From: Tubiluchus corallicola
Lineage: Eukaryota; Animalia; Priapulida
DNA: 25,006 nt
Assembly (NCBI GenBank): GCA_030141605.1
Contig: JAQGDQ010002471.1
Span: 1 to 25,006 of the forward strand
Direction: 5' to 3'
The stretch's first letter is position 1. Every line of letters starts with the position of its first letter. The notes beneath the pieces were generated by a model. That model ran no database searches. It was not told the origin of the DNA and saw only the letters and a program-made list of their open reading frames with translations. Below are positions 1 to 24,841 of the stretch, in pieces. A program made the position numbers and the translations under genes.

Positions 1-347
1 TAGAAGTTAAAACGGATAAGAATGGTGAAGAGTGTATTATCTTTAAATTTAATACAGGTTTTAAAACAGAAAAAGGTGAAAAGAGATTTATGTTTGAAAC
101 GCATTATGCTTGTGGGGAGTTTGAACATAATGGTGAAAAGAAGAGTAGAGCTGAAATCTTTGCTAAATTTTTAAATCGGTGTTTCAAGATAAAAAAGATT
201 GGTTCATTTGAAGAATTGAAAAAAGAGGTGGTAAATCAGAAGGTATCAGTGGCAGTTAAAAAAGGAGGTGATTTCTTAGAATTTTGGTATGCTGGGCATG
301 AGGATGAATATTTATCTATGAAGCATAGTTATTCTCCTAAGAAATAA
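1..347 (+). CDS. 5'-truncated duplicate of the 143-aa ORF at 2509-2940
   Basis: ORF 90..347 translation equals the C-terminal 85 aa of 2509..2940; lies within the inverted repeat. Confidence 0.8.
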   Translation, partial: EVKTDKNGEECIIFKFNTGFKTEKGEKRFMFETHYACGEFEHNGEKKSRAEIFAKFLNRCFKIKKIGSFEELKKEVVNQKVSVAVKKGGDFLEFWYAGHEDEYLSMKHSYSPKK

Positions 348-365
348 ATTTTAAAGAGATAAATT

Positions 366-398
366 AAGTGAGGAAATGTAAAATTCCTCACTTTTTTT
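366..398 (+). terminator. Rho-independent terminator after the 143-aa gene copy
   Basis: AAGTGAGGAA-atgtaaaa-TTCCTCACTT followed by a T run. Confidence 0.75.
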
Positions 399-450
399 CT
401 ATATGAATTGTAATTTTAAGTTTAATTAAAAAGAAAGAAGATTAATAGAC

Positions 451-2430
451 GTGGAACAAAAAAATAATGCTATAGTTATTGTATTTGCAGGTTTTTCATT
501 TCTTTTTTTGTTAATGATGCTTTATCAATATAATCATTCTTTTCTTATAGAAAGGAATTTAGCGAATAATTATCTTTCTGATTTTATTTTTAATCGGCAA
601 GATTTTTTTAAGAATTTTGTAAAGATTAAAACTTTTATGGTTTTAGTTATTATTATATCTTCATTTACTTTTCCTAACACTTGTAGTAGAATAGAAAATA
701 AGTTGAAATTTTTTCTATTATTTTTGTTAGTGTGTAGTATGTTTATTTTTTTAGAAAAATTACTTTTCTTTTCTTCAGCATTAGCATTTGTAATTTCTGT
801 TTTTGGGAACATTATTTTGTATTTTTTAATTTTTGTTTATTCAAGAAAGTTTATGTCTTTTTTAAAAAAGAAAATAGGGTTTGATGTGATAGAGAAAGGA
901 GAGGTACGGTTTAAGCAGGCATCAGAAAATGTAAAAAATAAATATAGCGTAAACTTTAATACAACACATGGATATATTTCAGTAACCAATCCTTTTAGAG
1001 CGACCCTTGTGCTTGGCACTCCGGGAAGTGGAAAAAGTTATGCAGTAATAGAGGAATATATTAGACAAATGATAAATAAAGGTTTTGCAATGTTGTTGTA
1101 TGATTTTAAGTATCCTGATTTATCGAAATATGCTTATAATGTATATGAGCAAGCAAAAAAAAAGGGCAAGACAAAGTGTAATTTTTATGTATTGGATTTT
1201 AAAAACATTAATCAATCTTATAGATGTAATCCTTTTAAAAGTGCAGTTGTTGATAGTGCAACGGCAATGGAGATGGCAACTACTATTTTGTTTACAATGA
1301 ATAAGACATGGATAGATAAGGGTGGAGATTTTTTTGTTGAATCTGCTATAAATTTTTATGGACTAGTTTTATCTTTTTTGTTGAAGTATGATAAAAGAAT
1401 GTGTACACTGCCACATTCATTGGTATTTATTTCTCAAAGTGCAGAAGATATATTTCCTTTATTATATCTTTATAGTATTATTCATGATGATTTATTTCCT
1501 TTATTTGCTCCATTTAAAGAGGCTGCTGATAAAGAAGTACATGAGCAGTTAGAGGGACAATTAGGAAGTGTACGAATTGGTTTGGGAAAGTTATCAAATA
1601 AAAATATGGCGTATGTTTTAACAGAAGGAGATATAGCTGATAGAAATATAAATTTAGATGTAAATAATGTAGAAAATCCTAAGATTATATGTGTTGGTAA
1701 TGCACCTGATATGCAGAAAATTTTTGGTATTGGCTGTTCAACAGTTTTAGCTTCTGCGAATAAATTTATGAATAATAGAGGAAAAAATTCTTCAAGTATA
1801 ATAATAGACGAATTACCAACTATATTTGTTAATGGAATAGACAATACAATAGCTACGGCACGAAGTAATAAAGTGGCGGTGGTATTAGGTTTTCAAGATT
1901 TTTCACAGTTAGTACGGGATTATGGCAAGAAAGTAACAGACGCTATAATTAATACTATAGGGAACATATTTAGTGGTGCAGTACGTGGGGAGACAGCAAA
2001 AATTCTTTCGGGAGCATTTGGTGATGTTTATCTGCAAGATGTGAATAAAAGTTATGGTGGATCAACTGTAACAATGTCAGAGCAAAAACGAAAAGAAGTA
2101 AAGATACCGAGAAGTGTTATAGAGGATCTTCCACAGGGTGATTTTGTTGGTAAGGTAGTTAGTGATTTTGGAGAAAAACCGAGAGAGTTATCGTTTCATA
2201 CAACAATAAAAATAAAGGAAGAATATAAAAAGAAGCCTTTTGATATAAAAAGAAAGTTTGAGACAAGTGAAAAGGAGATAGATGATAATAATAGACAGAT
2301 AACAGCAGATGTTATAAGATTGGTAAATAGTCATAAAGGGATTATTAATATTTTTAATACTGCCAAAAAAAAATTAGAAAATATAGCATTATTTTTTTGT
2401 TCCACGTCTATTAATCTTCTTTCTTTTTAA
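451..2430 (+). CDS. mobC: Type IV coupling protein, Bacteroidota MobC/VirD4 family; C-terminus truncated or chimeric
   Basis: N-terminal TM segments, NPFRATLVLGTPGSGKS (Walker A), YDFKYPDL, IIIDELPT (Walker B), ARSNKVAVVLGFQDFSQL; the last ~15 aa are read from the inverted copy of its own 5' end. Confidence 0.92.
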   Translation: MEQKNNAIVIVFAGFSFLFLLMMLYQYNHSFLIERNLANNYLSDFIFNRQDFFKNFVKIKTFMVLVIIISSFTFPNTCSRIENKLKFFLLFLLVCSMFIFLEKLLFFSSALAFVISVFGNIILYFLIFVYSRKFMSFLKKKIGFDVIEKGEVRFKQASENVKNKYSVNFNTTHGYISVTNPFRATLVLGTPGSGKSYAVIEEYIRQMINKGFAMLLYDFKYPDLSKYAYNVYEQAKKKGKTKCNFYVLDFKNINQSYRCNPFKSAVVDSATAMEMATTILFTMNKTWIDKGGDFFVESAINFYGLVLSFLLKYDKRMCTLPHSLVFISQSAEDIFPLLYLYSIIHDDLFPLFAPFKEAADKEVHEQLEGQLGSVRIGLGKLSNKNMAYVLTEGDIADRNINLDVNNVENPKIICVGNAPDMQKIFGIGCSTVLASANKFMNNRGKNSSSIIIDELPTIFVNGIDNTIATARSNKVAVVLGFQDFSQLVRDYGKKVTDAIINTIGNIFSGAVRGETAKILSGAFGDVYLQDVNKSYGGSTVTMSEQKRKEVKIPRSVIEDLPQGDFVGKVVSDFGEKPRELSFHTTIKIKEEYKKKPFDIKRKFETSEKEIDDNNRQITADVIRLVNSHKGIINIFNTAKKKLENIALFFCSTSINLLSF

Positions 2431-3570: not shown

Positions 3571-3865
3571 AAACAATTATAAACATTTATCTAAACAAAT
3601 CCAAAAAATTAAATATTTCTTTAACTATAATTTAAAATTAAAAACAAATAAAGGAAAAAGGAAAGATAAAAGAATTTCTTTGTGAAAAGACAACAGGGGA
3701 AAAGAATCAAAGGGAGAAAACAAAAAAATCAAAGGGAAAAAAGAGGCAAAGGAGAGGAAGAAGAGAATTTTATGCAACGCACTCCCCACCCTTATTACTT
3801 AACATAATGAAATTTATACTTATAAATATTCCATGAAAAAAAAGTAAAAAAAAACAGCAAAAAAC

Positions 3866-3909: not shown

Positions 3910-4004
3910 GAAATTAAAATGTGTAAAAAAAAGGAAATTAAAATGTGTAAAAAAAAGGAAATTAAAATGTGTAAAAAAAAGGAAATTAAAATGTGTAAAA
4001 AAAG
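3910..4004 (+). repeat. 24-bp tandem repeat x4, each unit containing an ATG
   Basis: GAAATTAAAATGTGTAAAAAAAAG at 3910, 3934, 3958 and 3982 (last copy one A shorter); encodes MCKKKEIK repeats. Confidence 0.95.
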
Positions 4005-4572
4005 AACCAAAAACCCACAAATCAAAAAAATCAAATGCGTTTCTGTGCGCCTTTCTTCATTCACCCTTTTGAAATCTGGAAAAGCATATCTAGCGACTGC
4101 CTATGATGGCTCTGAATGCTTTATTCCAGCTTCTTGCTATTATGGCGAAGACTATGATGTTCAAAAATCAAACGCTTACTGGATAGCAGAATCGATCCTT
4201 CATCAGAAGGACATTCAATGGTCGAACAAAAAGGTATCTTGGTTTGACAAAAAGCAAGAAGAGAAAGACGGAGTAAAAACAGAAGTTTTTATACCATTGA
4301 AAATAGACCCAATCGCGAATCCGCAAGCAGAAGAGGAATTGCAGAAAACAGTTAAGGGTTATTATTTAAGATGGGATGAAGTCCCCATTGTAATAAACAG
4401 ATTTGGCAAGAAGATGTTTAGAAAAAGGCAAATAATCCATATATATGAGGGGGTTTTGGCAAAAGCTCCCAAAGGGTTTAAAAAATTATCAGATCATAGT
4501 TTTAAAAAAGTAAAAGAAAAAGAGGGGACGCATATAGAGTGGGACGATCCCCTTAACACAAAGTCAAAATGA
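3919..4572 (+). CDS. Hypothetical protein, first gene of the helicase-ibrAB operon (true start may be the ATG at 3991)
   Basis: ORF overlaps the next gene by ATGA; the segment VRL..S.KAY.A..YDGSE..IP.SC..G.DY.VQKS.AYWIA recalls Bacteroidota prophage proteins (from memory). Confidence 0.8.
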   Translation: MCKKKEIKMCKKKEIKMCKKKEIKMCKKRTKNPQIKKIKCVSVRLSSFTLLKSGKAYLATAYDGSECFIPASCYYGEDYDVQKSNAYWIAESILHQKDIQWSNKKVSWFDKKQEEKDGVKTEVFIPLKIDPIANPQAEEELQKTVKGYYLRWDEVPIVINRFGKKMFRKRQIIHIYEGVLAKAPKGFKKLSDHSFKKVKEKEGTHIEWDDPLNTKSK

Positions 4573-5774
4573 ATCAGAAAGACATAAAACTTTTGAAACA
4601 TCAGAGAGAGGCAATAAAACGCCTCTCTCTGTTAAAAGTAGGAGCATTGTTTATGCAACCGGGTACTGGCAAAACCTTGACAGCATACAAATTGCTTCAA
4701 GAATGTAAACCAGATTATATAGTTTGGTTTACACCTTTTCAAACAAAAAAAAATTTAAAAATAGAATTAGAAAAATATGGCAATTTTGTCAACATAGACA
4801 TAATTGGCACAGAAAGTATTAGCGGAAGTAATAGATTGTATTTTAAACTTTTAGAAAAAGTAGGTAAATATAAAAACGTTGCCATTGTTGTTGATGAAAG
4901 CATAAAGATAAAAAATTGGTCTGCAAAAAGAACTCAGAGGATTTTAGAATTAGGTAGGCGAGCAACATTTAAACTTATTCTCAATGGCACTCCTCTCACA
5001 AGAAATATACTTGATCTTTGGGCTCAATGTGAGTTTTTAAGTAGAAAGATATTAAAAATGGGATATGTGCAATTCAAAAATAATTTTTGCGAGATAGTTA
5101 CTCGTACAAGAAAACACAATGGACGTGTACATAAAGAAGAGTTTGTGAGAGATTGTCATAATCTAGACTATTTGTATAGTCTAATCTCTCCTTATGTATA
5201 TGAATGTGATTTGAATTTGAAAATAAAAAAACAGCACGTTACAGTAAATTATAGCTTAGAAGATAAAGAAAGAGAAGAGTATGAGTGGCTTAAACGAAGG
5301 TTTTTGAGTATAGAAGCGTTACAAAAACATAATAACAATATTTTCTTAAAAATGACTCAAAAGCTACAACATTCGTATAGCTCCACACCTTCTAAATTAG
5401 AAGTATTAAAAAAAATATTATCTAAAAAAGATCCTACAAAATGTCTTGTGTATACAAAATACATCAAAAGCAGACAATGCGTAGAAGAAAAGTTTCCAGA
5501 ACTGAAAACGATGAGTTATGGAATGCATTCTTTTGGGCTTAATTTGCAAAAATACAATACAATTATTTACTTTGACCAGACGTTTGACTATGCTCAGCTT
5601 ACACAAAGTGAGTTTAGAATCTATAGAACGGGTCAAGAAGAAGACTGTACTTATTTTTATATGAAAGGAGACGTAGGATTAGAAAAAGTTATAAATTTGT
5701 GCATAAAAAAGAAAATAAGTTTGTTGGAATATTTTAAAAAAGTAGGACTTGAGCAAGTAAAAAAAGAGCTGTGA
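4569..5774 (+). CDS. SNF2-related superfamily 2 helicase/ATPase (phage type)
   Basis: LLKHQ Q-motif, GALFMQPGTGKT (Walker A), VVDES (Walker B), LNGTP (motif III), GLNLQ (motif V), QSEFRIYRTGQ (motif VI). Confidence 0.92.
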   Translation: MNQKDIKLLKHQREAIKRLSLLKVGALFMQPGTGKTLTAYKLLQECKPDYIVWFTPFQTKKNLKIELEKYGNFVNIDIIGTESISGSNRLYFKLLEKVGKYKNVAIVVDESIKIKNWSAKRTQRILELGRRATFKLILNGTPLTRNILDLWAQCEFLSRKILKMGYVQFKNNFCEIVTRTRKHNGRVHKEEFVRDCHNLDYLYSLISPYVYECDLNLKIKKQHVTVNYSLEDKEREEYEWLKRRFLSIEALQKHNNNIFLKMTQKLQHSYSSTPSKLEVLKKILSKKDPTKCLVYTKYIKSRQCVEEKFPELKTMSYGMHSFGLNLQKYNTIIYFDQTFDYAQLTQSEFRIYRTGQEEDCTYFYMKGDVGLEKVINLCIKKKISLLEYFKKVGLEQVKKEL

Positions 5775-6976
5775 GTACGAAACAATACAGAAAAATCAAC
5801 GTATACGAAGCCGCAAAACAACGATTTGAATTTGTTTTTAAAGAGTTTGAGAGGGTTTGTATTAGTTCTTCCTTTGGGAAGGATAGTGGGGTAATGCTCC
5901 ACATGGCAATAGAGGAGGCAAGAAGGCAAAATAAGTTGCCTGTAAACGTCCTCTTTATCGATATGGAGGCTCAATATGAACATACAATAGACTTTGCAAC
6001 AGCAATGATGCAAAAAAAAGAGATAAAGCCTTATTGGGTCGCTCTCCCAATAAATCTCCGAAACTCTGTAAGTCAGTTTCAGCCGTTTTGGAGGTGCTGG
6101 GACGCGGAACGAAAAGGTGATTGGACGAGAAAAATGCCAGAGGATTGCATTAGTGATGTAGATTATTTCCCGTTTTTCAAAATTGGAATGGAGTTCGAAG
6201 AATTTGTACTTGCTTTTGGCGAGTGGTTTAGTCAGGGGAAAAAGACAGCTTGTGTGGTCGGGATCAGAAGCGACGAAAGTCTAAATAGGTTTAGGACGAT
6301 TAGAAATGAAAATAAAAAAACATATAAGAACGAAACGTGGACGACAAAACTATTTCCAGAGACAAATAAGCAGATATACAATTGCTATCCTCTATATGAT
6401 TGGAGGACAGAAGATATTTGGATAGCGAATGGAAAAAACAAATGGAAATATAACAAAATATACGATTTAATGTATCTGGCAGGAGTATCAATACATAAAC
6501 AACGCCTTTGCCAGCCTTATGGAGATGACCAACGACAAGGGTTATATCTATTTAAGATGCTTGAACCTCAAACATGGGCAAAAGTCGTCAATAGAGTCGA
6601 GGGAGCGAACTTTGGAAACAGATACACCGAAGCCAATCATATTGCTTTGGGGAGAAATAAAATATTCTTGCCAAAAGAGCACACGTACGAAAGTTACGCG
6701 AAATTTTTACTCGAAACAATGCCTAAATCTTTATCAGAACACTACCAACGCAAAATAGATAAGTTTATTGCGTGGTGGGAAAAAGAAGGGGTGAAAACAA
6801 TCCCAGATTATGCTAATCAGAAGCAAGAAATGGCAAGGAAAGTGCCATCATGGAGAAGAATTTGCAAAACATTAATTAAAAATGATTATTGGTGCAAAGG
6901 ACTCTCGTTTGCTCAAACAAAAGGAGAAATCCAAAGACAATTAGAAATCATTAAAAAATACACAGAACTACTATGA
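5771..6976 (+). CDS. ibrA: IbrA/YbdN-like PAPS-reductase (PP-loop) + DUF3440 protein
   Basis: NVYEAAKQR, S.GKDSG PP-loop, FIDMEAQYEHT, GIRSDESLNR, YPLYDWRTEDIW, QRLCQPYGDDQRQGL, PSWRRICK..KND.WC..LSF. Confidence 0.92.
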   Translation: MSTKQYRKINVYEAAKQRFEFVFKEFERVCISSSFGKDSGVMLHMAIEEARRQNKLPVNVLFIDMEAQYEHTIDFATAMMQKKEIKPYWVALPINLRNSVSQFQPFWRCWDAERKGDWTRKMPEDCISDVDYFPFFKIGMEFEEFVLAFGEWFSQGKKTACVVGIRSDESLNRFRTIRNENKKTYKNETWTTKLFPETNKQIYNCYPLYDWRTEDIWIANGKNKWKYNKIYDLMYLAGVSIHKQRLCQPYGDDQRQGLYLFKMLEPQTWAKVVNRVEGANFGNRYTEANHIALGRNKIFLPKEHTYESYAKFLLETMPKSLSEHYQRKIDKFIAWWEKEGVKTIPDYANQKQEMARKVPSWRRICKTLIKNDYWCKGLSFAQTKGEIQRQLEIIKKYTELL

Positions 6977-7557
6977 AATTACAATTAGACAAAAAAATGC
7001 CTTTTGAAAAAAAAGTAAAGAGATTTAATGATCTCACCCAACAACTTTATGACTGGCTGGGAGTTAAACATCCCACGTTAAACATTCAACTCGTTCCAAT
7101 AGATAAAGTAAAAGGCAATGATTACAATCCAAATAAAGTCGCCCCTCCAGAAATGAAATTATTGCAGCTTTCTATGGAGAAGGACGGCGTAACCATGCCT
7201 GTAGTGGCATGTAAAACAAAAGAGGGATATACCGTTGTAGATGGCTTTCACAGGCGAACGGTCGCAAAAAAATCAAAAAAATTAGCCAAAAGCCTGAAAG
7301 GATTTTTGCCAATAAGCCGATTAGATAAAGACTTAGAGGACAGAATAGCAAGCACTGTAAGGCATAATTTGGCAAGAGGAACCCACCAAGTAGAACTTTC
7401 GGCAGAATTAGTTATAACTCTCCGAAAACACAATTGGGATGATGAGCGTATCGCTAAAGGATTAGGAATGGATGCAGAAGAAGTTTTACGCTTAAAGCAA
7501 GTTACAGGATTGGCAGAAGCATTTGCTGACAAGGATTTCTCAAATTCTTGGAAATAA
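6973..7557 (+). CDS. ibrB: IbrB/YbdM-like ParB/Sulfiredoxin-domain protein
   Basis: NDYNPNKVAPPEMKLL, DGVTMPVV, VVDGFHR, STVRHNLARGTH, C-terminal HTH LGMDAEEVLRLKQ, FSNSW. Confidence 0.92.
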   Translation: MKLQLDKKMPFEKKVKRFNDLTQQLYDWLGVKHPTLNIQLVPIDKVKGNDYNPNKVAPPEMKLLQLSMEKDGVTMPVVACKTKEGYTVVDGFHRRTVAKKSKKLAKSLKGFLPISRLDKDLEDRIASTVRHNLARGTHQVELSAELVITLRKHNWDDERIAKGLGMDAEEVLRLKQVTGLAEAFADKDFSNSWK

Positions 7558-7584
7558 AAAAGGGTCAAATTAAAAATCAAAAAA

Positions 7585-7902
7585 ATGTTACAAACAACAA
7601 CAAAATTCAATACAATTATTAACACCAAGCTCAATGAACTTGGTTTTGAAAAGGTGGTTAAATCCATCCCTTTAGTACCAGAAAAAACTTCACTGACTAA
7701 GTGTTTTGTCGCAGAGGCAAAGTTAGATGTGGATGGTGCAATAAAACATATTTTTACAAAAGTAGATGTAAAAATATATTGTGTTGGTATGAAAGATGGA
7801 AGTGTAAATTTAATGTTAGACTACTTATACGAACACCCTATAGGTAAAAACGGATATACACTGAAATTCCTTTACAGAAAAGATAAAGGCTGGAATCATT
7901 AA
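7585..7902 (+). CDS. Hypothetical protein
   Basis: 105-aa ORF with an A-rich start, co-oriented with the operon. Confidence 0.7.
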   Translation: MLQTTTKFNTIINTKLNELGFEKVVKSIPLVPEKTSLTKCFVAEAKLDVDGAIKHIFTKVDVKIYCVGMKDGSVNLMLDYLYEHPIGKNGYTLKFLYRKDKGWNH

Positions 7903-8185: not shown

Positions 8186-9178
8186 TTACTCCTTCCCTCC
8201 TATTCTATTGCTTTGCTTTTTTTGTTTTGTGTCCCACTCAAAATCATTTTTTAGAATATATAATATTAGCCTTTTGATATCCTTAGTAGTTTTTTTACCA
8301 CTCACTACGTCATCATCCAATTGTGTGCATCTATTATAGCATTGTTGCAGGTGATTGTTTTGATGTAAATGCTGCATTAATTGAGTTGTGCTATCACTAT
8401 AATATACTGAAAAGAATCTTATTAAATAACTGTACATTTCATTCTCTTTCTCTTTTTTGCTTTCATCTTCTTTTCGTCTTACTATCTTAAAGGTGATAGT
8501 ATCAAATGCTCTACTTCCTTTGGATCTGCTTAAAGAGTAATTGAACCATACATCTGCCTTCTCTTTTAATTCCCGCTGCGCATAATCTAATACAAATCGT
8601 TTAAATTCGCTTAACCCCGAATATTTTTTCTCCACATAAAGCATTCTTTTTAATCTTCTCAAATTTACTTCTACTCCTCCTTTATCTACCCATCTACAAC
8701 ATATTTCATACATTCGCTTTGCATGTGAACTCTTCAAGATAAGAGCTATAGTTTTTTGATACTTTGTAAAACCTTTACCAATATAAAGCCACATGGGAAG
8801 TGCCATTTCAGCTATTTCTATTTTTAATAAATCTGTACCATACGGGTGTTCAGCACCTGCTATCATTCCTGTAACCACAACACTTTTTCTCTCTCTTTCT
8901 AAAGATTCATACTCAAACGTTTTTTGAACAATACTTTCTGCTGCATCTACTAAATTTCTATAATCACTTTTTTTCACAAGATGTTTTACACTAATGAAAA
9001 AGGAAATACTCCCTGTAAGTCCCCTCTGTTGAGGTGTCATTTTATCCTGTAAAACAGAAATAATTTCATAAATAATATTCTTTTGCAAAGGAGTAAAATC
9101 ATATCGTGCATTTGTTATATGGTTAGGTTGGATAATTGTATTTTTATTATTATCCTTTACTACAACTGTATTCTTCAT
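8186..9178 (-). CDS. repB: Plasmid replication initiator, Rep_3/RepB family
   Basis: IIQPNHITNARYDFTPLQKNII, GFTKY, LKSSHAKRMYE, FKRFVLDYAQRELKE motifs; adjacent iterons. Confidence 0.92.
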   Translation of the reverse strand: MKNTVVVKDNNKNTIIQPNHITNARYDFTPLQKNIIYEIISVLQDKMTPQQRGLTGSISFFISVKHLVKKSDYRNLVDAAESIVQKTFEYESLERERKSVVVTGMIAGAEHPYGTDLLKIEIAEMALPMWLYIGKGFTKYQKTIALILKSSHAKRMYEICCRWVDKGGVEVNLRRLKRMLYVEKKYSGLSEFKRFVLDYAQRELKEKADVWFNYSLSRSKGSRAFDTITFKIVRRKEDESKKEKENEMYSYLIRFFSVYYSDSTTQLMQHLHQNNHLQQCYNRCTQLDDDVVSGKKTTKDIKRLILYILKNDFEWDTKQKKQSNRIGGKE

Positions 9179-9256
9179 ATATTCTTATTTAAATAATGTA
9201 ATATGCAATGTATAAAAAAACAAAAAGAAAAACAAAAGAAAACTTTTTTTTTCTCC

Positions 9257-9344
9257 TTTGACTGTTATTTTCTCCTGTTTTGACCGCTATTTTCTCCTGT
9301 TTTGACCGTTATTTTCTCCTGTTTTGACCGTTATTTTCTCCTGT
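9257..9344. repeat. Iteron cluster 1: four 22-bp direct repeats
   Basis: TTTGACCGTTATTTTCTCCTGT consensus at 9257, 9279, 9301 and 9323. Confidence 0.93.
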
Positions 9345-9352
9345 TTCAAAAG

Positions 9353-9361
9353 TTATCCACA
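9353..9361 (+). promoter_or_regulatory. DnaA box
   Basis: Perfect TTATCCACA 8 bp after iteron cluster 1. Confidence 0.85.
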
Positions 9362-9583
9362 TCGTAATTCTTTTTAAAACAACGAGTTACAAAAATTTTT
9401 TTTATTGTACAATAGTACTTATAATATACTACAATATACTACTATAAAGCATTTGCTTGAAAATAAGGCGTTTGCTTGAAAATCAAGCAAACATCCTTCA
9501 AATATTATTCGCTAACGCTCATAAACAACCTTAATCAAAGGGAAAAAAGAACGGTTTTTCCCTTTTAACTCATTTCGTCTCTT

Positions 9584-9900
9584 TTATACCGTTATTTTCT
9601 CCTGTTTTGACCGCTATTTTCTCCTGTTTTGACCGTTATTTTCTCCTGTTTTGACCGCTCTTGCCAAATTATGCCTTACAGTGCTTGCCTGTTTTGACCG
9701 TTATTTTCTCCTGTTTTCAAAAGTTATCCACATCGTAATTCTTTTTAAAACAACGAGTTACAAAATTTTTTTTATTGTACAATACCGAAAGAAGAAAGGG
9801 TAATAAAAGATATCCTGTTTTGACCGTTATTTTCTCCTGTTTTGACCGCTCTTGCCAAATTATGCCTTACAGTGCTTGCCTGTTTTGACCGTTATTTTCT
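9584..9900. repeat. Iteron cluster 2 with interspersed gene-derived ~30-nt inserts
   Basis: Iterons at 9584, 9606, 9628, 9693 and 9819 plus partial copies; inserts at 9658-9688, 9785-9813 and 9849-9879. Confidence 0.9.
9724..9732 (+). promoter_or_regulatory. Second DnaA box (in the duplicated block)
   Basis: TTATCCACA. Confidence 0.8.
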
Positions 9901-10009
9901 TATCTTTTAATCTATTTTTACTTCTTTTATGCCGTTATTTTAAAAAAAATTACTATCTTTACTTAACTGAATTAGAAACACTTAATTGAATTATAAAAAA
10001 CAAACTATT

Positions 10010-11002
10010 ATGAAAAAAATATTATTTCTTTTCCCTTTGATTATTATTTTAATCTCTTGCAAGAAAGATAATCCAATACCCATAGAGGAAGTAATAGAAA
10101 ATAAAAACAAATTCCCATTATTAATAACCTTACATAATGGTTTGCAAGTAGATAAATCTCAAAACCTTGATTTTTCATCTTATGATAAGATATATTTTAA
10201 TACATATGATAAATATGCTACTGATTTTCCCAGTGAACATATAAAGTGGAGAGAAGATAGCGCCAAAGTAAAAACAGAAGATAATTACTCCACAGGCTAT
10301 ACTATTAACTTTAAATTAGATACAACAGACAAAGAATGTAAAAAACAATATATAACTGAATTTTCGTTTTATTTGTTAGATACTATGAAAATAACGGGAG
10401 ATATAGGAGAGGGAGAGGGACAATATTATGAAGTAAAAACAATAATGCAGAAAAAAGAACTAAATGTCAAAGAGTATTTTTTAAAATTTTATCCCGATAC
10501 AACAGGAATATATTATTATCGTCTAAGCGTAAAAAATAATTATGGTAAGGTTATTAATGCTAACATTAGATTAAATGTATTTGATAACATCCCTCCTATT
10601 CCCTATGTCAATATAAAATGGATATCAAACTCTAATAATAGTGGTAATTATCCAAATAGCAGTTATGTATTTGATGTTATATTAGATAGTTGTAAAGACG
10701 GAGATGATTATTACGGAGGTAAAATTGTTAATACAAACATCCTTTTTGAACACTTACCAAGTTCTGGAAATTTAAAGAACGAAACAAAAACTTTTGAAAA
10801 TTGTAATTTAAATGAAATTATCAATATTACACAAGATGAATGGAGATTTGGACAGAATGATACTATTGCTATAACAACGACAGTTACAGATGATAATGGA
10901 GCTGTAACAAGCGAATTTTTAAAAATATATGCTCTATTCCCAAGTGAACAAACAGAAGAGGAGAAGATACGTGTCTTGAAAAGAATAATAACAATTAAAT
11001 AA
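10010..11002 (+). CDS. Lipoprotein with a C-terminal PKD/Ig-like domain
   Basis: Type II signal MKKILFLFPLIIILIS-C-KKD (ATG at 10010); N.PP...D.D..YGG.I...VTDDNGA pattern. Confidence 0.85.
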   Translation: MKKILFLFPLIIILISCKKDNPIPIEEVIENKNKFPLLITLHNGLQVDKSQNLDFSSYDKIYFNTYDKYATDFPSEHIKWREDSAKVKTEDNYSTGYTINFKLDTTDKECKKQYITEFSFYLLDTMKITGDIGEGEGQYYEVKTIMQKKELNVKEYFLKFYPDTTGIYYYRLSVKNNYGKVINANIRLNVFDNIPPIPYVNIKWISNSNNSGNYPNSSYVFDVILDSCKDGDDYYGGKIVNTNILFEHLPSSGNLKNETKTFENCNLNEIINITQDEWRFGQNDTIAITTTVTDDNGAVTSEFLKIYALFPSEQTEEEKIRVLKRIITIK

Positions 11003-11010
11003 TTATTGTC

Positions 11011-13950
11011 ATGAAAAAATTAATTTTATCTTTTTTGCTTACAAACATTATAGCATTTACCACAGCTCAAACATCAATTGTTACTATTAATTGTGGTAGT
11101 CCCACTATTGGTGCATCAGCTCATGCCACAAGTGTTGTTATAACAGAAAATCTAACCTTACGTCCAAACTATAACTATACTTTGAAATATGAAGATTATA
11201 TTAATTTTATTGTTAATTTACCCAATGGAAAAAGTTTTAATGTCTCGTCAGGTGAAGGAAATATCGGAGGAATCTCACTTAATAATTTATGTTCAACAGG
11301 CAGAATTGTTCAACAAATAATAATTTCTAAGACTAATTCACAAGTTTCTGTTAATGGAAACAACGGAGTAAATAAAACTTATGAAAAAACAGTTAATTTG
11401 CCATTGTCTGTATTCTCTTTATGGGAAGACTATACAGCCCCAATGACTACTAATACGACAGTTACAGTAACTGTGAAAATTAATGTGTCATTCGCATTTG
11501 AAGATTATCGAAATATACCTAATGCCATTACTTCTTTTGATCAAGCAGTGATAACAGAAAAAACATGTAATAACATAAAGTTTACAAAAAAAGATCCATA
11601 TAATTTTTATTCAAAATATTTATGGTACGAAGGAAATACGAAAGAAGACGAAAATTTAGAATGGACACATGATATTAGTAACAAATTAAATCAAGAAATT
11701 ACTTTTGGGATTCAGGAAGACCCCGAAGCATACTATGGTTATTCAAAAAGTCAAATTTTTACAAAAAAGATAACTGCCCCCACTCCTACTCTCCCTAATC
11801 CAAAGATAAAAATTACTTCCAATACTACCAATACAACATATTTTCTTAATGATGGGGTAAGATTTTTTGATTTAACAGAAGATGAAAATTTTTCATTAAA
11901 GATAGATGAAAACATAAACTACAGTTCAAAAGTGAAAATAATATGGGAAAAGAGAGATAAAGGCTCAAACGATTGGCAACAGATATCTTATATGTTATGG
12001 AGTAATGGAGGCAACATACTTAATCATGTTGCAGATGTAAATATAGATGCAATACGTTATATATTAATTTACGAACACAACGAAAATGATTGGAACTGTG
12101 CTGTTTCCACACGACAAAGCCAACAATTAAATTTAAATGTGCTCAAAAAACCAATGTTAGTGATAACACCTACTACCGCAACTGAATTATGTGTCGGTGA
12201 AAAATTAATAATAGAAGCCCCTACAAAACAAAACGTAACTCATATTTTAGGTTGGTATAAAGATGATATAAAAATAAATGAAAATGAAAATATAACAATA
12301 AATCCAATTGATTGGACATTAACAGTAAATAATGTTGGAGAAGAAGAAGAAGGCAATTATTACTTTAAAGGTTATAATACATATATATATAATGAAAATG
12401 AATCTAATGAAGTAACTATTAATATACACAGCATACCTATTAAACCAAAACTATACGGAGCTATATATCCATTGACTGAAGGAATAAATGAAAAACAATA
12501 TATGGACACTGTTCATGTAATTGATAGCTACCATACAAAAATTTTTATCAATAATGCTAATGCTGAAGAAAAAGAATATGTATGGAAAAAAGAAAATGAA
12601 GATTTTATAACCACAACAGAAAACTATATACATATATATCCTTTTAACACAAATAATGAAGGAAACTATTCTGTATTTAAAGTATCAGAGGCAAACAAGT
12701 GTACAAGTGAAGTAACAAATATATATCTTAACTTTGTACCCAATATAAAGAATATAATTTTAAATGCTCCTGATGAAATCACTATTGAGCCGAAGGAAGA
12801 AAGGGTAATAAAAGATATAGAACCATATAATGTAAATCATAGAAATAAAATAACATATCAATTTATAGATTATAACGATAATTCTATTTTTGCAACAGGT
12901 GATAGCCTTATTCTCACTCCAGAACTTATACTTACACGCCCAATGATAAAAATAAAAGCTATTAGTGATGATGAAGATACATTTAAAGAAAAGTTATTAA
13001 AAATAAATTTATCAAAATTGGAAATTGAGAATATAGACATAGAAATATCTAAAAATGGTGAGAACATAGAATATAATGATAGAATAGAGGTGGTACAAGG
13101 AACAGAGCTAACTTTTATTCTAATAGGAGATGAAAGTATAGATGGCATTATGAATAACTCAAATATTTCATGGTATGTAGAGAGCCTAAAAACACCGTCT
13201 GTACAAGATACTGGAATGATAAATCTTATTTATCCTTTTAATAATGCAGGCAATTACATTGTAAGAGCGGGAATAAATGGGAATATGTTTAATACTGACA
13301 TTGATGAGACAAGCCCAAGTGTAATAATTAATGTAACTCCTGCTACTTTATCTAACCTAAAAGTAATAGCATTACTTGACGATGAAGAAATTGAAGAAAA
13401 TATCGAAATAAAACGAGGTACAGAAATAAGTTTTATACTTCAATATAACGAAACAAATCAAATTATTAAAAATGCAAAAATAACATGGCAACTTGAAAAA
13501 GAAAATGGATGGGTAATAGATGATATTGGATGGACAACTGTACATCATTTCTTCAATAGTATTGGAAACTTTGAAGTGAAAGCAAAGATTGAAGGTGAAT
13601 TTTTCAACACAGAAATAATAGAAGAAACACATCCATTTCAAGTTAATGTAGTATTACCTGAGGGTACTATAAAAAATGCAGAGTTAGGCGGCGAAGATGA
13701 TATAATATTATATCCTAACCCCTTCACTACACATCTTCACACAAAAATTTTTGTAGAAAAAAGCCAAGAAATACTTATATCCATTTTTAAAAATGGTATT
13801 TTCATTGATAGACAAATAATTAATGTTGTTGGTGGTATTAATAACACTATAAAAATCAATACACAAAGAGTAACAGAAGCGGGGATTTACATCATAAAAC
13901 TACAAAACATACAAGGACTTGACAAAACAATAAGAGTCATTAAACAATAA
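11011..13950 (+). CDS. T9SS-secreted surface protein with Ig/PKD-like repeats (putative adhesin)
   Basis: Signal peptide; Ig-like WYKD...EGNY, YVWKK...EGNYSV and two PKD-like repeats; type A CTD ILYPNPF...GIYIIKL...TIRVIKQ. Confidence 0.9.
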   Translation: MKKLILSFLLTNIIAFTTAQTSIVTINCGSPTIGASAHATSVVITENLTLRPNYNYTLKYEDYINFIVNLPNGKSFNVSSGEGNIGGISLNNLCSTGRIVQQIIISKTNSQVSVNGNNGVNKTYEKTVNLPLSVFSLWEDYTAPMTTNTTVTVTVKINVSFAFEDYRNIPNAITSFDQAVITEKTCNNIKFTKKDPYNFYSKYLWYEGNTKEDENLEWTHDISNKLNQEITFGIQEDPEAYYGYSKSQIFTKKITAPTPTLPNPKIKITSNTTNTTYFLNDGVRFFDLTEDENFSLKIDENINYSSKVKIIWEKRDKGSNDWQQISYMLWSNGGNILNHVADVNIDAIRYILIYEHNENDWNCAVSTRQSQQLNLNVLKKPMLVITPTTATELCVGEKLIIEAPTKQNVTHILGWYKDDIKINENENITINPIDWTLTVNNVGEEEEGNYYFKGYNTYIYNENESNEVTINIHSIPIKPKLYGAIYPLTEGINEKQYMDTVHVIDSYHTKIFINNANAEEKEYVWKKENEDFITTTENYIHIYPFNTNNEGNYSVFKVSEANKCTSEVTNIYLNFVPNIKNIILNAPDEITIEPKEERVIKDIEPYNVNHRNKITYQFIDYNDNSIFATGDSLILTPELILTRPMIKIKAISDDEDTFKEKLLKINLSKLEIENIDIEISKNGENIEYNDRIEVVQGTELTFILIGDESIDGIMNNSNISWYVESLKTPSVQDTGMINLIYPFNNAGNYIVRAGINGNMFNTDIDETSPSVIINVTPATLSNLKVIALLDDEEIEENIEIKRGTEISFILQYNETNQIIKNAKITWQLEKENGWVIDDIGWTTVHHFFNSIGNFEVKAKIEGEFFNTEIIEETHPFQVNVVLPEGTIKNAELGGEDDIILYPNPFTTHLHTKIFVEKSQEILISIFKNGIFIDRQIINVVGGINNTIKINTQRVTEAGIYIIKLQNIQGLDKTIRVIKQ

Positions 13951-13972
13951 CATCACATAAAATTATTATAAC

Positions 13973-14779
13973 ATGAAAAAAATATATATAGTAATTCTTT
14001 TATTACCTTTTACCATCGCTGCTTGTGATCAAACAGAAAAATGGATAAATAGCTATAATGATAAAAATGGAAGAATGACCATTAAAATAAATACTAATCT
14101 GAAAGAGGAATATTTAAACGCTAACGCTGAAAACTACTTACCCATCATAGACTCGGGCAAAGTTTCAAAAATTGTTAATGACACAATCTTAACTGATAAT
14201 CGTTATATACTGCAAATAGAAGCTATTGAAAAAGTCAATAACTTTCATAGCATAAAAGTTCAAAACATTAATGGTGAAGGCATATTTTACGTGGACTTAA
14301 AAAAGATAAATGAAAACGAAAAAATTGTACTTACAGATAAAAAAACACTATTACATTACATTTCTCTTAACCCAACACTGAATGTTTTTAAAATTGAAAT
14401 ATCAGATACTTTTGGAAAAGTATACACAATCATTGATAGTGTATATATGATAGCCAACAAACCACCGAGAGTATCATTTACTATTTCTAATAATAAAGAT
14501 AAAGACAAAAACGAACAAAAATATTTTATAATAACTAATGATATTGTAGACACAGATGCTCACATTGGCGGTTATATTCATTCATTACTATATGAAATAA
14601 AAGTGTATAACGACAATGAAGATTTATTATATGAAAAAAATATTACCAGTACACCGACTGAAACGTTAGAATTTTTCATTCCACAAAAATATACAGGTAA
14701 AACATTACGAATAAAAGTTATAGCTACTGATAATGACTTTGATACTGCTCATGATACAAAAAATATTATAATAGGTTAA
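13973..14779 (+). CDS. Lipoprotein with a PKD/Ig-like domain, distant paralogue of 10010-11002
   Basis: MKKIYIVILLLPFTIAA-C; NKPP...DTD..IGGYI...ATDND pattern. Confidence 0.85.
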   Translation: MKKIYIVILLLPFTIAACDQTEKWINSYNDKNGRMTIKINTNLKEEYLNANAENYLPIIDSGKVSKIVNDTILTDNRYILQIEAIEKVNNFHSIKVQNINGEGIFYVDLKKINENEKIVLTDKKTLLHYISLNPTLNVFKIEISDTFGKVYTIIDSVYMIANKPPRVSFTISNNKDKDKNEQKYFIITNDIVDTDAHIGGYIHSLLYEIKVYNDNEDLLYEKNITSTPTETLEFFIPQKYTGKTLRIKVIATDNDFDTAHDTKNIIIG

Positions 14780-23753: not shown

Positions 23754-24578
23754 TTATTTATTTAATATGCCTGCAGTGAGTAGAACTTCTGTTGCGAAAT
23801 TGAAGAATAATTGATAATATTCATATTTTTTATTATTTATTTGTATCATAGTATTAAACGGAAAAATTGTACTTACTTCTTTTTGTATTTTTGTGTTTTC
23901 ATAAACAACAGAAATCAAAAAATCTAAGTTATATTTTTCTTTAAACTCCTTCTTTACAAAGCTATATAGATCTTGATTTTTATGCGATATATATCTTGTG
24001 AAAAATAGATAAATCTTCTTCAACTCAGGAATAATCTCATTCGTTTTTAATCTTTCTATCAACTGTATATATTTCTCTGTACTATCAACTGTAGTTACAT
24101 CAAATGTAGTAGGAATGTACAAATAATTAATGGTTTGAACTATATTAGCAACCCCCGCTTGTTCAATAGAACCGGGCAAATCCACTATTATTAAATCATA
24201 TTCTCCACTTTTTAACAACTCATTATATTTTTCTAAATCTTTCTTTTCTGTCGTTTTAATTTTATAAAAATCAAAAGGTTTAACCCTTTCTTCTCCGTAC
24301 TCTTGAGCAAATTTATCTGCTAACTCTTTATCTGACTTCATTCTACTAATATCTGATTTTCTTAAACTGTGAAAAGATGCTTGTACATCTGCATCAATAA
24401 TACATACATTTATTCTAGAAAATTTATTACGCAAAAAATTTCTTATTGTTTCTTTCTTTTTTCCCTTTGATAACTCTGTATATATATTATTTAGCGTTGC
24501 TACAAACATTGCTGATGTAGTAGTTTTTGTTATTCCTCCCTTTTGCGAAGCAAAAGACATTACCACTGGTTTCTTCAT
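23754..24578 (-). CDS. parA: ParA-family ATPase (CTn TraA-like)
   Basis: FASQKGGITKTT (deviant Walker A), IIDADVQAS, YDLIIVDLPGS. Confidence 0.9.
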   Translation of the reverse strand: MKKPVVMSFASQKGGITKTTTSAMFVATLNNIYTELSKGKKKETIRNFLRNKFSRINVCIIDADVQASFHSLRKSDISRMKSDKELADKFAQEYGEERVKPFDFYKIKTTEKKDLEKYNELLKSGEYDLIIVDLPGSIEQAGVANIVQTINYLYIPTTFDVTTVDSTEKYIQLIERLKTNEIIPELKKIYLFFTRYISHKNQDLYSFVKKEFKEKYNLDFLISVVYENTKIQKEVSTIFPFNTMIQINNKKYEYYQLFFNFATEVLLTAGILNK

Positions 24579-24773
24579 TATAATATTAATCTCAAGTAAA
24601 CATATTAAACTAACAATAATAATACAAACATAATATAATAATTCTATTATGCAAATATATTTTCAATTTATTATTTTAATAAAAATAATATAAACATTAT
24701 ATAATTAACTCAATAAACAATAATATACAAACAAAACTAATCATATTATTAGTTGATAACATAATTAATACAT

Positions 24774-24841
24774 GCTAAGATTATTAATCTTAGCTAACAT
24801 TATTAGCACGCTAACAATGTTAGCACGATAACATTGTTAGC
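24774..24841. promoter_or_regulatory. Array of 15-bp palindromes (parS/operator candidate)
   Basis: GCTAACATTATTAGC (24793), GCTAACAATGTTAGC (24810), GATAACATTGTTAGC (24827), 17-bp period; degenerate copy at 24774. Confidence 0.6.

What the first reader, a model, noticed from the sequence alone, without database searches (positions are those of the whole stretch)
9584..9900. Iteron array that has captured ~30-nt pieces of the element's own genes at one fixed position: a repeat-spacer structure inside a plasmid origin
Seen: normal iterons read ACCG-TTATTTTCT-CCTGTTTTG. At three places the 9-nt middle is replaced by 26-30 nt of unrelated sequence, each time preceded by ACCG and followed by CCTGTTTTGACCG. 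The two distinct inserts both match coding sequence 2.3-3 kb away, and both sit at junctions of local duplications. Two different donors with similar length and the same junction point suggest a site-specific process. Inferred alternatives: (a) a Cas-independent spacer-acquisition or guide array at the origin, possibly giving antisense or guide RNAs against own or competing plasmids; (b) templated insertions from break repair or template switching at Rep-bound iterons; (c) an amplification or assembly artifact. No cas gene, integrase or reverse transcriptase is visible in the window.
Basis: partly seen in the sequence, partly recalled or inferred. Interest (0 to 1): 0.88.

Follow-up and report, generated by a model that had tools for sequence, protein, structure and literature searches.

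The report
Self-copied patches inside a plasmid origin
In the replication origin of a Bacteroidota-type conjugative plasmid, two roughly 30-letter pieces of the plasmid's own genes sit at the same position of the origin's repeats, looking like a tiny CRISPR array, but they are more likely scars of homology-guided DNA repair than a working memory system, with stray spacer insertion by a host CRISPR enzyme as the main untested alternative.

Summary
The structure is real. A Rep_3 origin with 22-bp iterons has a second, rearranged array holding insert S1 (30 nt, twice; exact reverse complement of 7349-7378) and insert S2 (29 nt, 28/29 to 12790-12818). Contigs of a public run, possibly the source sample, carry the junctions at 24-33x per copy, like the rest of the plasmid.

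There are only two distinct inserts. Left of S2 only ACCG of the iteron remains, and its CCG is also in the donor. Both donors resemble the iteron right beside the copied stretch, in the register of the insertion point (11/14 nt, background 0.0006; CCG, 0.002), which favours homology-primed patching followed by iteron-driven duplication (0.5).

Off-target host Cas1-Cas2 integration stays a real rival (0.3): spacer-like lengths, a perfect 35-nt unit between inserts, shared borders. A functional guide array is unlikely (0.07): the inserts point in opposite directions, the repeat is unstructured, and 0 of 85 distant rep loci showed such inserts. One instance, no close relatives, no RNA data.

The parts
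8186..9178 (-). Rep_3 replication initiator (330 aa)
   Evidence: Pfam Rep3_N E=2.6e-19 and Rep3_C E=1.3e-08; best plasmid hit Fulvitalea axinellae, 36% identity
9252..9346 (.). Iteron array 1, uninterrupted: one degenerate, three full and one partial 22-bp unit, 74-168 nt upstream of the rep start
   Evidence: TRF period 22, 4.1 copies; relatives carry 22/32-spaced repeats at the same place; an Acinetobacter rep plasmid shares 17 nt of the unit
9347..9413 (.). Origin segment X: DnaA-box match (9353-9361) and AT-rich stretch; source of patch X'
   Evidence: the DnaA-box consensus used is recalled, not from a call
9557..9944 (.). Iteron array 2, rearranged; degenerate unit pairs at both ends (9557-9600 and 9901-9944)
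   Evidence: (D1, D4, D18)
9658..9687 (.). Insert S1, first copy, 30 nt, between iteron position 13 and position 1
   Evidence: exact reverse complement of 7349-7378
9718..9783 (.). Patch X', 66-nt copy of 9347-9413 (one A shorter), standing in place of one G of an iteron
   Evidence: both A-tract lengths present in X1 contigs
9785..9813 (.). Insert S2, 29 nt including a CCG shared by donor and iteron (26 nt without it)
   Evidence: 28/29 to 12790-12818; the mismatch (9790 vs 12795) is a synonymous third codon position in the donor frame
9814..9848 (.). Perfect 35-nt unit (22+13) between S2 and S1; same sequence at 9623-9657
   Evidence: no predicted RNA structure on either strand
9849..9878 (.). 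Insert S1, second copy, part of a duplication of 9622-9709 at 9813-9900
   Evidence: (D4)
7335..7378 (-). Donor of S1 (7349-7378) in the ParB_N gene, plus 14-nt flank (7335-7348) resembling the iteron stretch that follows the insertion point
   Evidence: 11/14 match, background fraction 0.0006
12785..12818 (+). Donor of S2 (12790-12818) in the 979-aa Ig-domain gene, starting in an iteron-end look-alike (TTGAGCCG vs TTGACCG)
   Evidence: only 2 such sites in both strands outside the origin; exact 3-nt junction match has background 0.0022

Best explanation
The two inserts are copies of the plasmid's own genes placed at the same iteron position, and they are likely repair or template-switch patches that were primed by short matches between the iteron and the donor flanks, then likely multiplied by duplication between iterons. 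Shown: donor identity, borders, iteron-like flanks at both donors, local duplications. Inferred: a DNA end or gap arises at iteron position 13/14 (a Rep-bound or stalling site is the guess), anneals to an iteron look-alike elsewhere on the plasmid, copies 26-30 nt and rejoins the array at a unit start; the 66-nt X' patch and the second S1 copy arose by the same kind of slippage. The result would be a scar in a spare second origin copy, tolerated because array 1 is intact, with no RNA function.
For: S1 donor 3' flank matches 11 of the 14 nt that follow the insertion point in a C-type iteron; 29 positions outside the origin do as well, fraction 0.0006; its best alignment offset is exactly 13. 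S2 donor begins with the iteron's last three letters (background 0.0022) inside a gapped 7-nt look-alike found at 2 sites outside the origin. I tested 10 flank/register pairs after seeing the data, so corrected odds are roughly 0.01-0.02 each. A third templated patch (X') and two local duplications sit in the same 330 nt. Neither S1 copy is followed by a complete 35-nt unit, and S2 is not preceded by one. Inserts point in opposite directions relative to their genes. Microhomology-guided patches of 3 to about 100 bp are described in bacteria (SPDIR; 10.1101/2023.11.22.568220 passages; 10.1101/2024.07.02.601687 abstract, introduction and passages).
Against: Both inserts share the left border (ACCG) and the right border (CCTG) and have similar lengths, which plain microhomology patching does not predict; SPDIR products are described as highly variable in size and very rare. 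The 11/14 match beside S1 covers the 9 nt that are missing from the product, so a further deletion step is needed. The S1 left junction and the S2 right junction have little or no homology (5/14 and 1/14). The fixed break point is assumed, not shown. n = 2.
Confidence: 0.5

Rival explanations
1. Off-target spacer integration by a host Cas1-Cas2 acting in trans: the integrase took plasmid fragments and inserted them into the iteron array, duplicating a 35-bp (22+13) target, giving R-S1-R-S2-R-S1-R' that was later damaged by the X' patch and a duplication. A natural 'neo-CRISPR' array, probably not functional.
For: Lengths 30 and 29 nt; identical borders; removing X' leaves a repeat-spacer pattern with a perfect 35-nt unit between S2 and S1 and a degenerate last unit. 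Bacteroidota II-C and VI-B repeats of 36 bp and acquisition in trans are described (PMC8092290 passages). Off-target integration is described in vitro (PMC6895254 passages) and in E. coli (Nivala 2018, seen only as cited). The S2 mismatch is synonymous in the donor frame (8 of 29 transitions would be), which weakly fits capture from a related allele; a related rep allele is in the same sample. Weak flank motifs: a TT-N motif 5' of both donors if S2 lost 2 nt; a shared GAACC 3' of both on the window + strand (background 0.03), but then the inserts lie in opposite orientation to it.
Against: No complete target duplication survives on both sides of any insert. The unit is 35, not 36, and begins with C on both strands, whereas the S. 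thermophilus integrase prefers G. It leaves the CCG overlap and the 11/14 flank as coincidences. No shared motif at a fixed offset in array orientation; the F. columnare PAM is absent. No Rfam CRISPR family match at E<=1. No cas gene among 25 ORFs scanned; the host genome is not held. Loose ends shown for X1 and X2 give only the two donor genes as other contexts of S1 and S2 (10 of 11 shown).
Confidence: 0.3
2. A functional, Cas-independent acquisition or guide array at the origin that makes small RNAs against the plasmid's own or competing plasmids' genes.
For: Fixed borders and similar lengths; S1 kept in two identical copies; a related replicon seems present in the sample.
Against: A + strand transcript would be antisense to the ParB_N gene but sense to the 979-aa gene. 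The 35-nt unit folds at 0 kcal/mol and the array folds no better than shuffles (z 0.8 to 1.5). Promoter-like sites 6 vs 3.9 +/- 1.9 in shuffles. No integrase, RT or Cas family among 25 ORFs (15). 0 of 85 distant rep loci show self-derived inserts between iterons (weak test).
Confidence: 0.07
3. Amplification chimera or assembly artefact.
For: The window begins with an inverted duplication (1-477 vs 2379-2855) of the kind that whole-genome amplification produces (PMC6218980 passages). All supporting runs are one sample, library type not on record.
Against: Junction contigs in X1 have the depth expected from their copy number in the window; the iteron|S1 junction recurs in X2; copies differ from their sources by one substitution and two homopolymer lengths, and both A-tract lengths are in X1.
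Confidence: 0.08

Closest known systems
Rep_3 iteron origins of theta plasmids (e.g. Acinetobacter sp. WCHAc010034 p11_010034, NZ_CP032269.1)
   Same: 22-bp direct repeats just upstream of a rep gene; 17 nt of the unit are identical
   Different: That plasmid and the 85 rep loci examined have no self-derived inserts; here a second, rearranged array carries them
SPDIR / microhomology-guided microindels (Acinetobacter baylyi; 10.1101/2023.11.22.568220 passages, 10.1101/2024.07.02.601687 abstract, introduction, passages)
   Same: Short ectopic patch traceable to a donor elsewhere in the cell, replacing a few letters, with gapped or mismatched microhomology
   Different: Two patches share both borders and length; homology is on one side only for each; the S1 homology covers letters missing from the product
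Neo-CRISPR arrays from off-target Cas1-Cas2 integration (Nivala 2018, seen only as cited in PMC7054753 and 10.1101/148544; in vitro off-target sites in PMC6895254 passages)
   Same: Spacer-sized inserts between direct repeats at a non-CRISPR site
   Different: No complete target duplication left, no PAM shown, integrase unknown; target is an iteron array
Virus- and plasmid-borne CRISPR mini-arrays (PMC6858448, search listing and start of abstract only; description otherwise recalled)
   Same: Tiny repeat-spacer unit on a mobile element without cas genes in view
   Different: The repeat is the plasmid's own iteron rather than a host CRISPR repeat, and the targets are the element itself

Membership tests
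Rep_3 iteron origin | Rep_3 gene next to 17-22-bp direct repeats | tested here: met
Rep_3 iteron origin | DnaA box and AT-rich stretch beside the repeats | tested here: met
   match at 9353-9361 to a recalled consensus; AT-rich stretch follows
Rep_3 iteron origin | Rep binds the repeats and the region replicates | not testable with these tools
   needs binding and replication assays
CRISPR array / mini-array | Near-identical repeats separated by unique spacers of near-constant length | tested here: inconclusive
   two complete 35-nt units, one broken by X', one degenerate; spacers 30, 26-29, 30, one duplicated
CRISPR array / mini-array | Repeat belongs to a known CRISPR repeat family or matches a host array | tested here: inconclusive
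   no Rfam CRISPR match at E<=1; host genome not held
CRISPR array / mini-array | Common PAM at a fixed side and offset of the protospacers | tested here: not met
   flanks in array orientation share no motif at the same offset; only offset-shifted or inverted motifs, background 0.03; n=2
CRISPR array / mini-array | Transcription and processing into guide RNAs | not testable with these tools
   no RNA holder listed
Neo-CRISPR (off-target Cas1-Cas2) | Repeat-length target duplication on both sides of the insert | tested here: inconclusive
   13 nt duplicated around S1; 35-nt copy complete on the left only, 30 and 22 nt on the right
Neo-CRISPR (off-target Cas1-Cas2) | Host encodes Cas1-Cas2 with matching rulers | not testable with these tools
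   no genome held
SPDIR / microhomology-templated patch | Patch of 3 to about 100 bp traceable to an ectopic donor | tested here: met
SPDIR / microhomology-templated patch | Microhomology between donor flank and target | tested here: inconclusive
   present on one side of each insert above background, weak or absent on the other
SPDIR / microhomology-templated patch | Single-strand donor, suppression by RecA and exonucleases | not testable with these tools
   genetic test needed

The most novel reading that the evidence does not exclude
Plasmid iterons serve as the repeat for site-specific spacer acquisition: an integrase (most plausibly a host Cas1-Cas2 in trans, less plausibly an unknown Cas-independent enzyme) has twice written about 30 nt of plasmid DNA into one fixed position of the origin repeats, a CRISPR-like array caught being born from a replication origin in nature.
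Probability: 0.3. Interest if true: 0.75.

Novelty: new variant of a known kind. Interest (0 to 1): 0.42.

Why it matters
If the inserts are repair patches, this is a rare natural snapshot showing that iteron arrays can be hot spots for self-templated microindels, and a warning that repeat-spacer patterns can arise without CRISPR. If they are Cas1-Cas2 products, it would be a natural case of an array seeded on a non-CRISPR repeat and would give a testable route by which new arrays start on mobile elements. My searches of the held library listed no paper describing such inserts in iterons; (iteron + Cas1 + integration + plasmid origin) returned 0. Subscription journals are mostly not held.

Tried and rejected
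Whole genome: none held, so host cas genes and the rest of the plasmid could not be examined.

RNA: no RNA holder listed; X5 gave no laid contigs. Not evidence either way.

Close relatives: none found. Rep homologues reach 42-43% identity at best (17 hits). TraG had no hit at E<=1e-100 among the 7992 candidates scored. Iteron patterns gave 0 matches in viral contigs and the Rep alignment gave none there. Origin DNA against plasmids gave 4 records, one meaningful. S2 region against phages gave 19 weak matches (best E 0.07), taken as chance.

Relatives' origins: 85 loci (1 plasmid, 77 metagenome, 7 genome; L021 and L079 are the same stretch; one search kept the best 80 of 100 matches). 64 have more than 500 nt upstream; 40 have a detectable array. 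Five show a 36-55-nt gap: three share a 41-nt spacing (L039, L043, L082) and two are degenerate iterons (L073, L076); none has a donor elsewhere. Median length of array loci is 3960 nt and identity is at most 47%, so the test is weak.

The X1 joint 13332 to 12588 was looked at as a possible host array; flanks gave no repeat and it was left unexplained. Bacteroidota-type promoter pattern (recalled): 5 matches in the window, none in the origin. Low depth of 9365-9620 in X1 (17.7) could mean a deletion subpopulation or coverage noise; not resolved. The T-T tandem and the 3-T junction of array 1 were not seen among X1 records shown; a 52-nt record in X2 and X3 with one difference fits the T-T tandem. 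Earlier findings by place and sequence: none. Nivala 2018 is not held; no supplements were read.

Full report
Setting. The window is a 28% GC stretch of a conjugative plasmid of Bacteroidota type: Rep_3, ParA, TraG/J/K/M of the Bacteroidetes conjugative-transposon type, a MobC-like coupling protein, an SNase, and an SNF2 / PAPS-reductase-DUF3440 / ParB_N operon. No Cas, integrase or reverse-transcriptase family was hit among 25 ORFs, 15 of them also scanned against PADLOC and 10 against PHROGs. Earlier AI notes place the window in an invertebrate animal assembly (not checked by me), so the plasmid is probably from an associated bacterium; no genome is held and the plasmid may extend beyond the window.

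The repeats are iterons. Array 1 (9252-9346) lies directly upstream of rep with period 22, followed by a DnaA-box match at 9353-9361 (recalled consensus) and an AT-rich stretch. Rep relatives carry 22/32-spaced repeats at the same place (44 of 85 loci had an array by the 10-mer test). An Acinetobacter rep plasmid has an uninterrupted array sharing 17 nt of the unit.

The observation. Array 2 (9557-9944) reads: two degenerate units, a C-type unit, a T-type unit, 13-nt half, S1, T-type unit, CCTGTTTT, patch X', ACCG, the rest of S2, T-type unit, half, S1, T-type unit, two degenerate units. S1 is 30 nt and the exact reverse complement of 7349-7378. S2 is 29 nt with 28 matches to 12790-12818. These matches cannot be chance (about 1e-14 and 5e-11). 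9591-9784 equals 9264-9414 plus 43 nt (half + S1), apart from two homopolymer lengths, so array 2 is largely a copy of the origin core.

Is it real? Five runs were listed, two hold the stretch, both from one sample that may be the source. In X1 the contig graph breaks at 7349-7377, as a repeated S1 requires. Records covering the junctions have depth 27.2 (X'|S2), 66.6 and 65.7 (S1, two copies) and 32.8, against 26-32 for single-copy plasmid DNA; depth per window copy is 24-33 in 7 of 8 records and 17.7 in one. Only X'|S2 has 31 nt on both sides. X2 holds the iteron|S1 junction at depth 2.6. An assembly error is therefore unlikely. An early amplification chimera cannot be excluded, since library type is not on record and the window starts with an inverted duplication, but small differences between copies and sources argue for events in the cell.

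What weakens the 'fixed junction'. The ACCG left of S2 is only four letters, and CCG is in the donor too. If CCG is the iteron end, X' is a 66-nt patch replacing one G and S2 is 26 nt; if CCG is donor, S2 is 29 nt and has no iteron on its left.

Evidence for homology-guided patching. The 14 nt after the S1 donor match the 14 nt after the insertion point of a C-type iteron at 11 positions; 0.0006 of positions outside the origin do as well. The S2 donor starts within TTGAGCCG, against TTGACCG at the iteron's position 7-13; two such sites exist outside the origin, and an exact 3-nt junction match has background 0.0022. These were found after inspection among 10 flank/register pairs, so I take about 0.01-0.02 each. 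Microhomology-guided patches of 3 to about 100 bp are known in bacteria. Against: the S1 homology covers the nine letters that the product lacks, the opposite junctions have 5/14 and 1/14 matches, and this model needs an assumed fixed break to explain shared borders.

Evidence for off-target Cas1-Cas2. Lengths of 30 and 29, shared borders and a perfect 35-nt unit between S2 and S1 fit a ruler-type integrase; 36-bp repeats and acquisition in trans are described in Flavobacterium, off-target integration in vitro and in E. coli (cited only). An earlier AI note reports 35-bp repeats with Cas1-Cas2 in Bacteroidales (not tested). Against: no insert keeps a full duplication on both sides, no motif is shared at a fixed offset in array orientation, the unit begins with C on both strands while the one system I read about prefers G, and both homology signals become coincidences. 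The type V-A paper (PMC13034035 passages) describes 27-29-nt prespacers and need for a terminal palindrome, which this unit lacks.

Function. The inserts are in opposite orientation to their genes, so no single transcript is antisense to both. Neither the unit nor the array folds better than shuffles; promoter-like sites are at background; Rfam gives no match near the origin. 0 of 85 distant rep loci show self-derived inserts between iterons, a weak test because loci are short and at most 47% identical.

Verdict. A real, unusual, single-instance structure. Best reading: homology-primed patches plus duplication in a spare origin copy (0.5). Main rival: natural off-target spacer integration (0.3). 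Functional array 0.07, artefact 0.08, other 0.05. It works like a templated microindel hot spot and looks like a mini-array, but it is not filed as a CRISPR array because the PAM test was not met and the repeat is an iteron. Interest 0.42: the odd anatomy is solid and cheaply testable, but it rests on two inserts in one sample.

Noticed in passing
window 1-477 and 2379-2855: Perfect 477-nt inverted duplication at the window start, flanking the MobC-like gene, whose last about 16 codons come from the inverted arm; either an amplification fold-back or an invertible/duplicated segment.
   Followed up: partly
window 8235-8569 and 9408-9446 in runs X1-X3: Variant contigs with several substitutions in the rep 3' part (depth 6.7 in X1, about 4 in X2) and a diverged origin-like record in X2 suggest a related replicon in the same sample.
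   Followed up: no
window 9365-9620: X1 depth 17.7 against about 30 elsewhere; may reflect molecules deleted between the identical stretches of arrays 1 and 2, or noise.
   Followed up: partly
window 3919-7902: Operon of a phage-like unknown gene (phrog_5809), SNF2 helicase, PAPS-reductase/DUF3440 and ParB_N genes with higher GC than the plasmid; resembles ibrAB-type modules (name recalled).
   Followed up: no
window 3700-3745, 9532-9570, 10029-10043, 24454-24471: A TTTTCCCTTTGAT-like motif recurs, with 22-bp period before the SNF2 operon and as an inverted repeat between the two iteron arrays; possible secondary Rep sites.
   Followed up: no
window 13332 and 12588 in run X1: A contig of depth 7.5 joins these two places with 27 other letters between; unexplained, possibly chance short matches.
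   Followed up: partly
window 24757-24841: 17-19-bp repeats upstream of parA, possible centromere-like site.
   Followed up: no
window 9986-14779: Three genes for probable surface or secreted proteins, including the 979-aa Ig-domain protein that donated S2; no family names beyond I-set.
   Followed up: no
L086 1795-1865 (NZ_CP032269.1): An Acinetobacter plasmid iteron shares 17 of 22 nt with this Bacteroidota-type iteron.
   Followed up: partly
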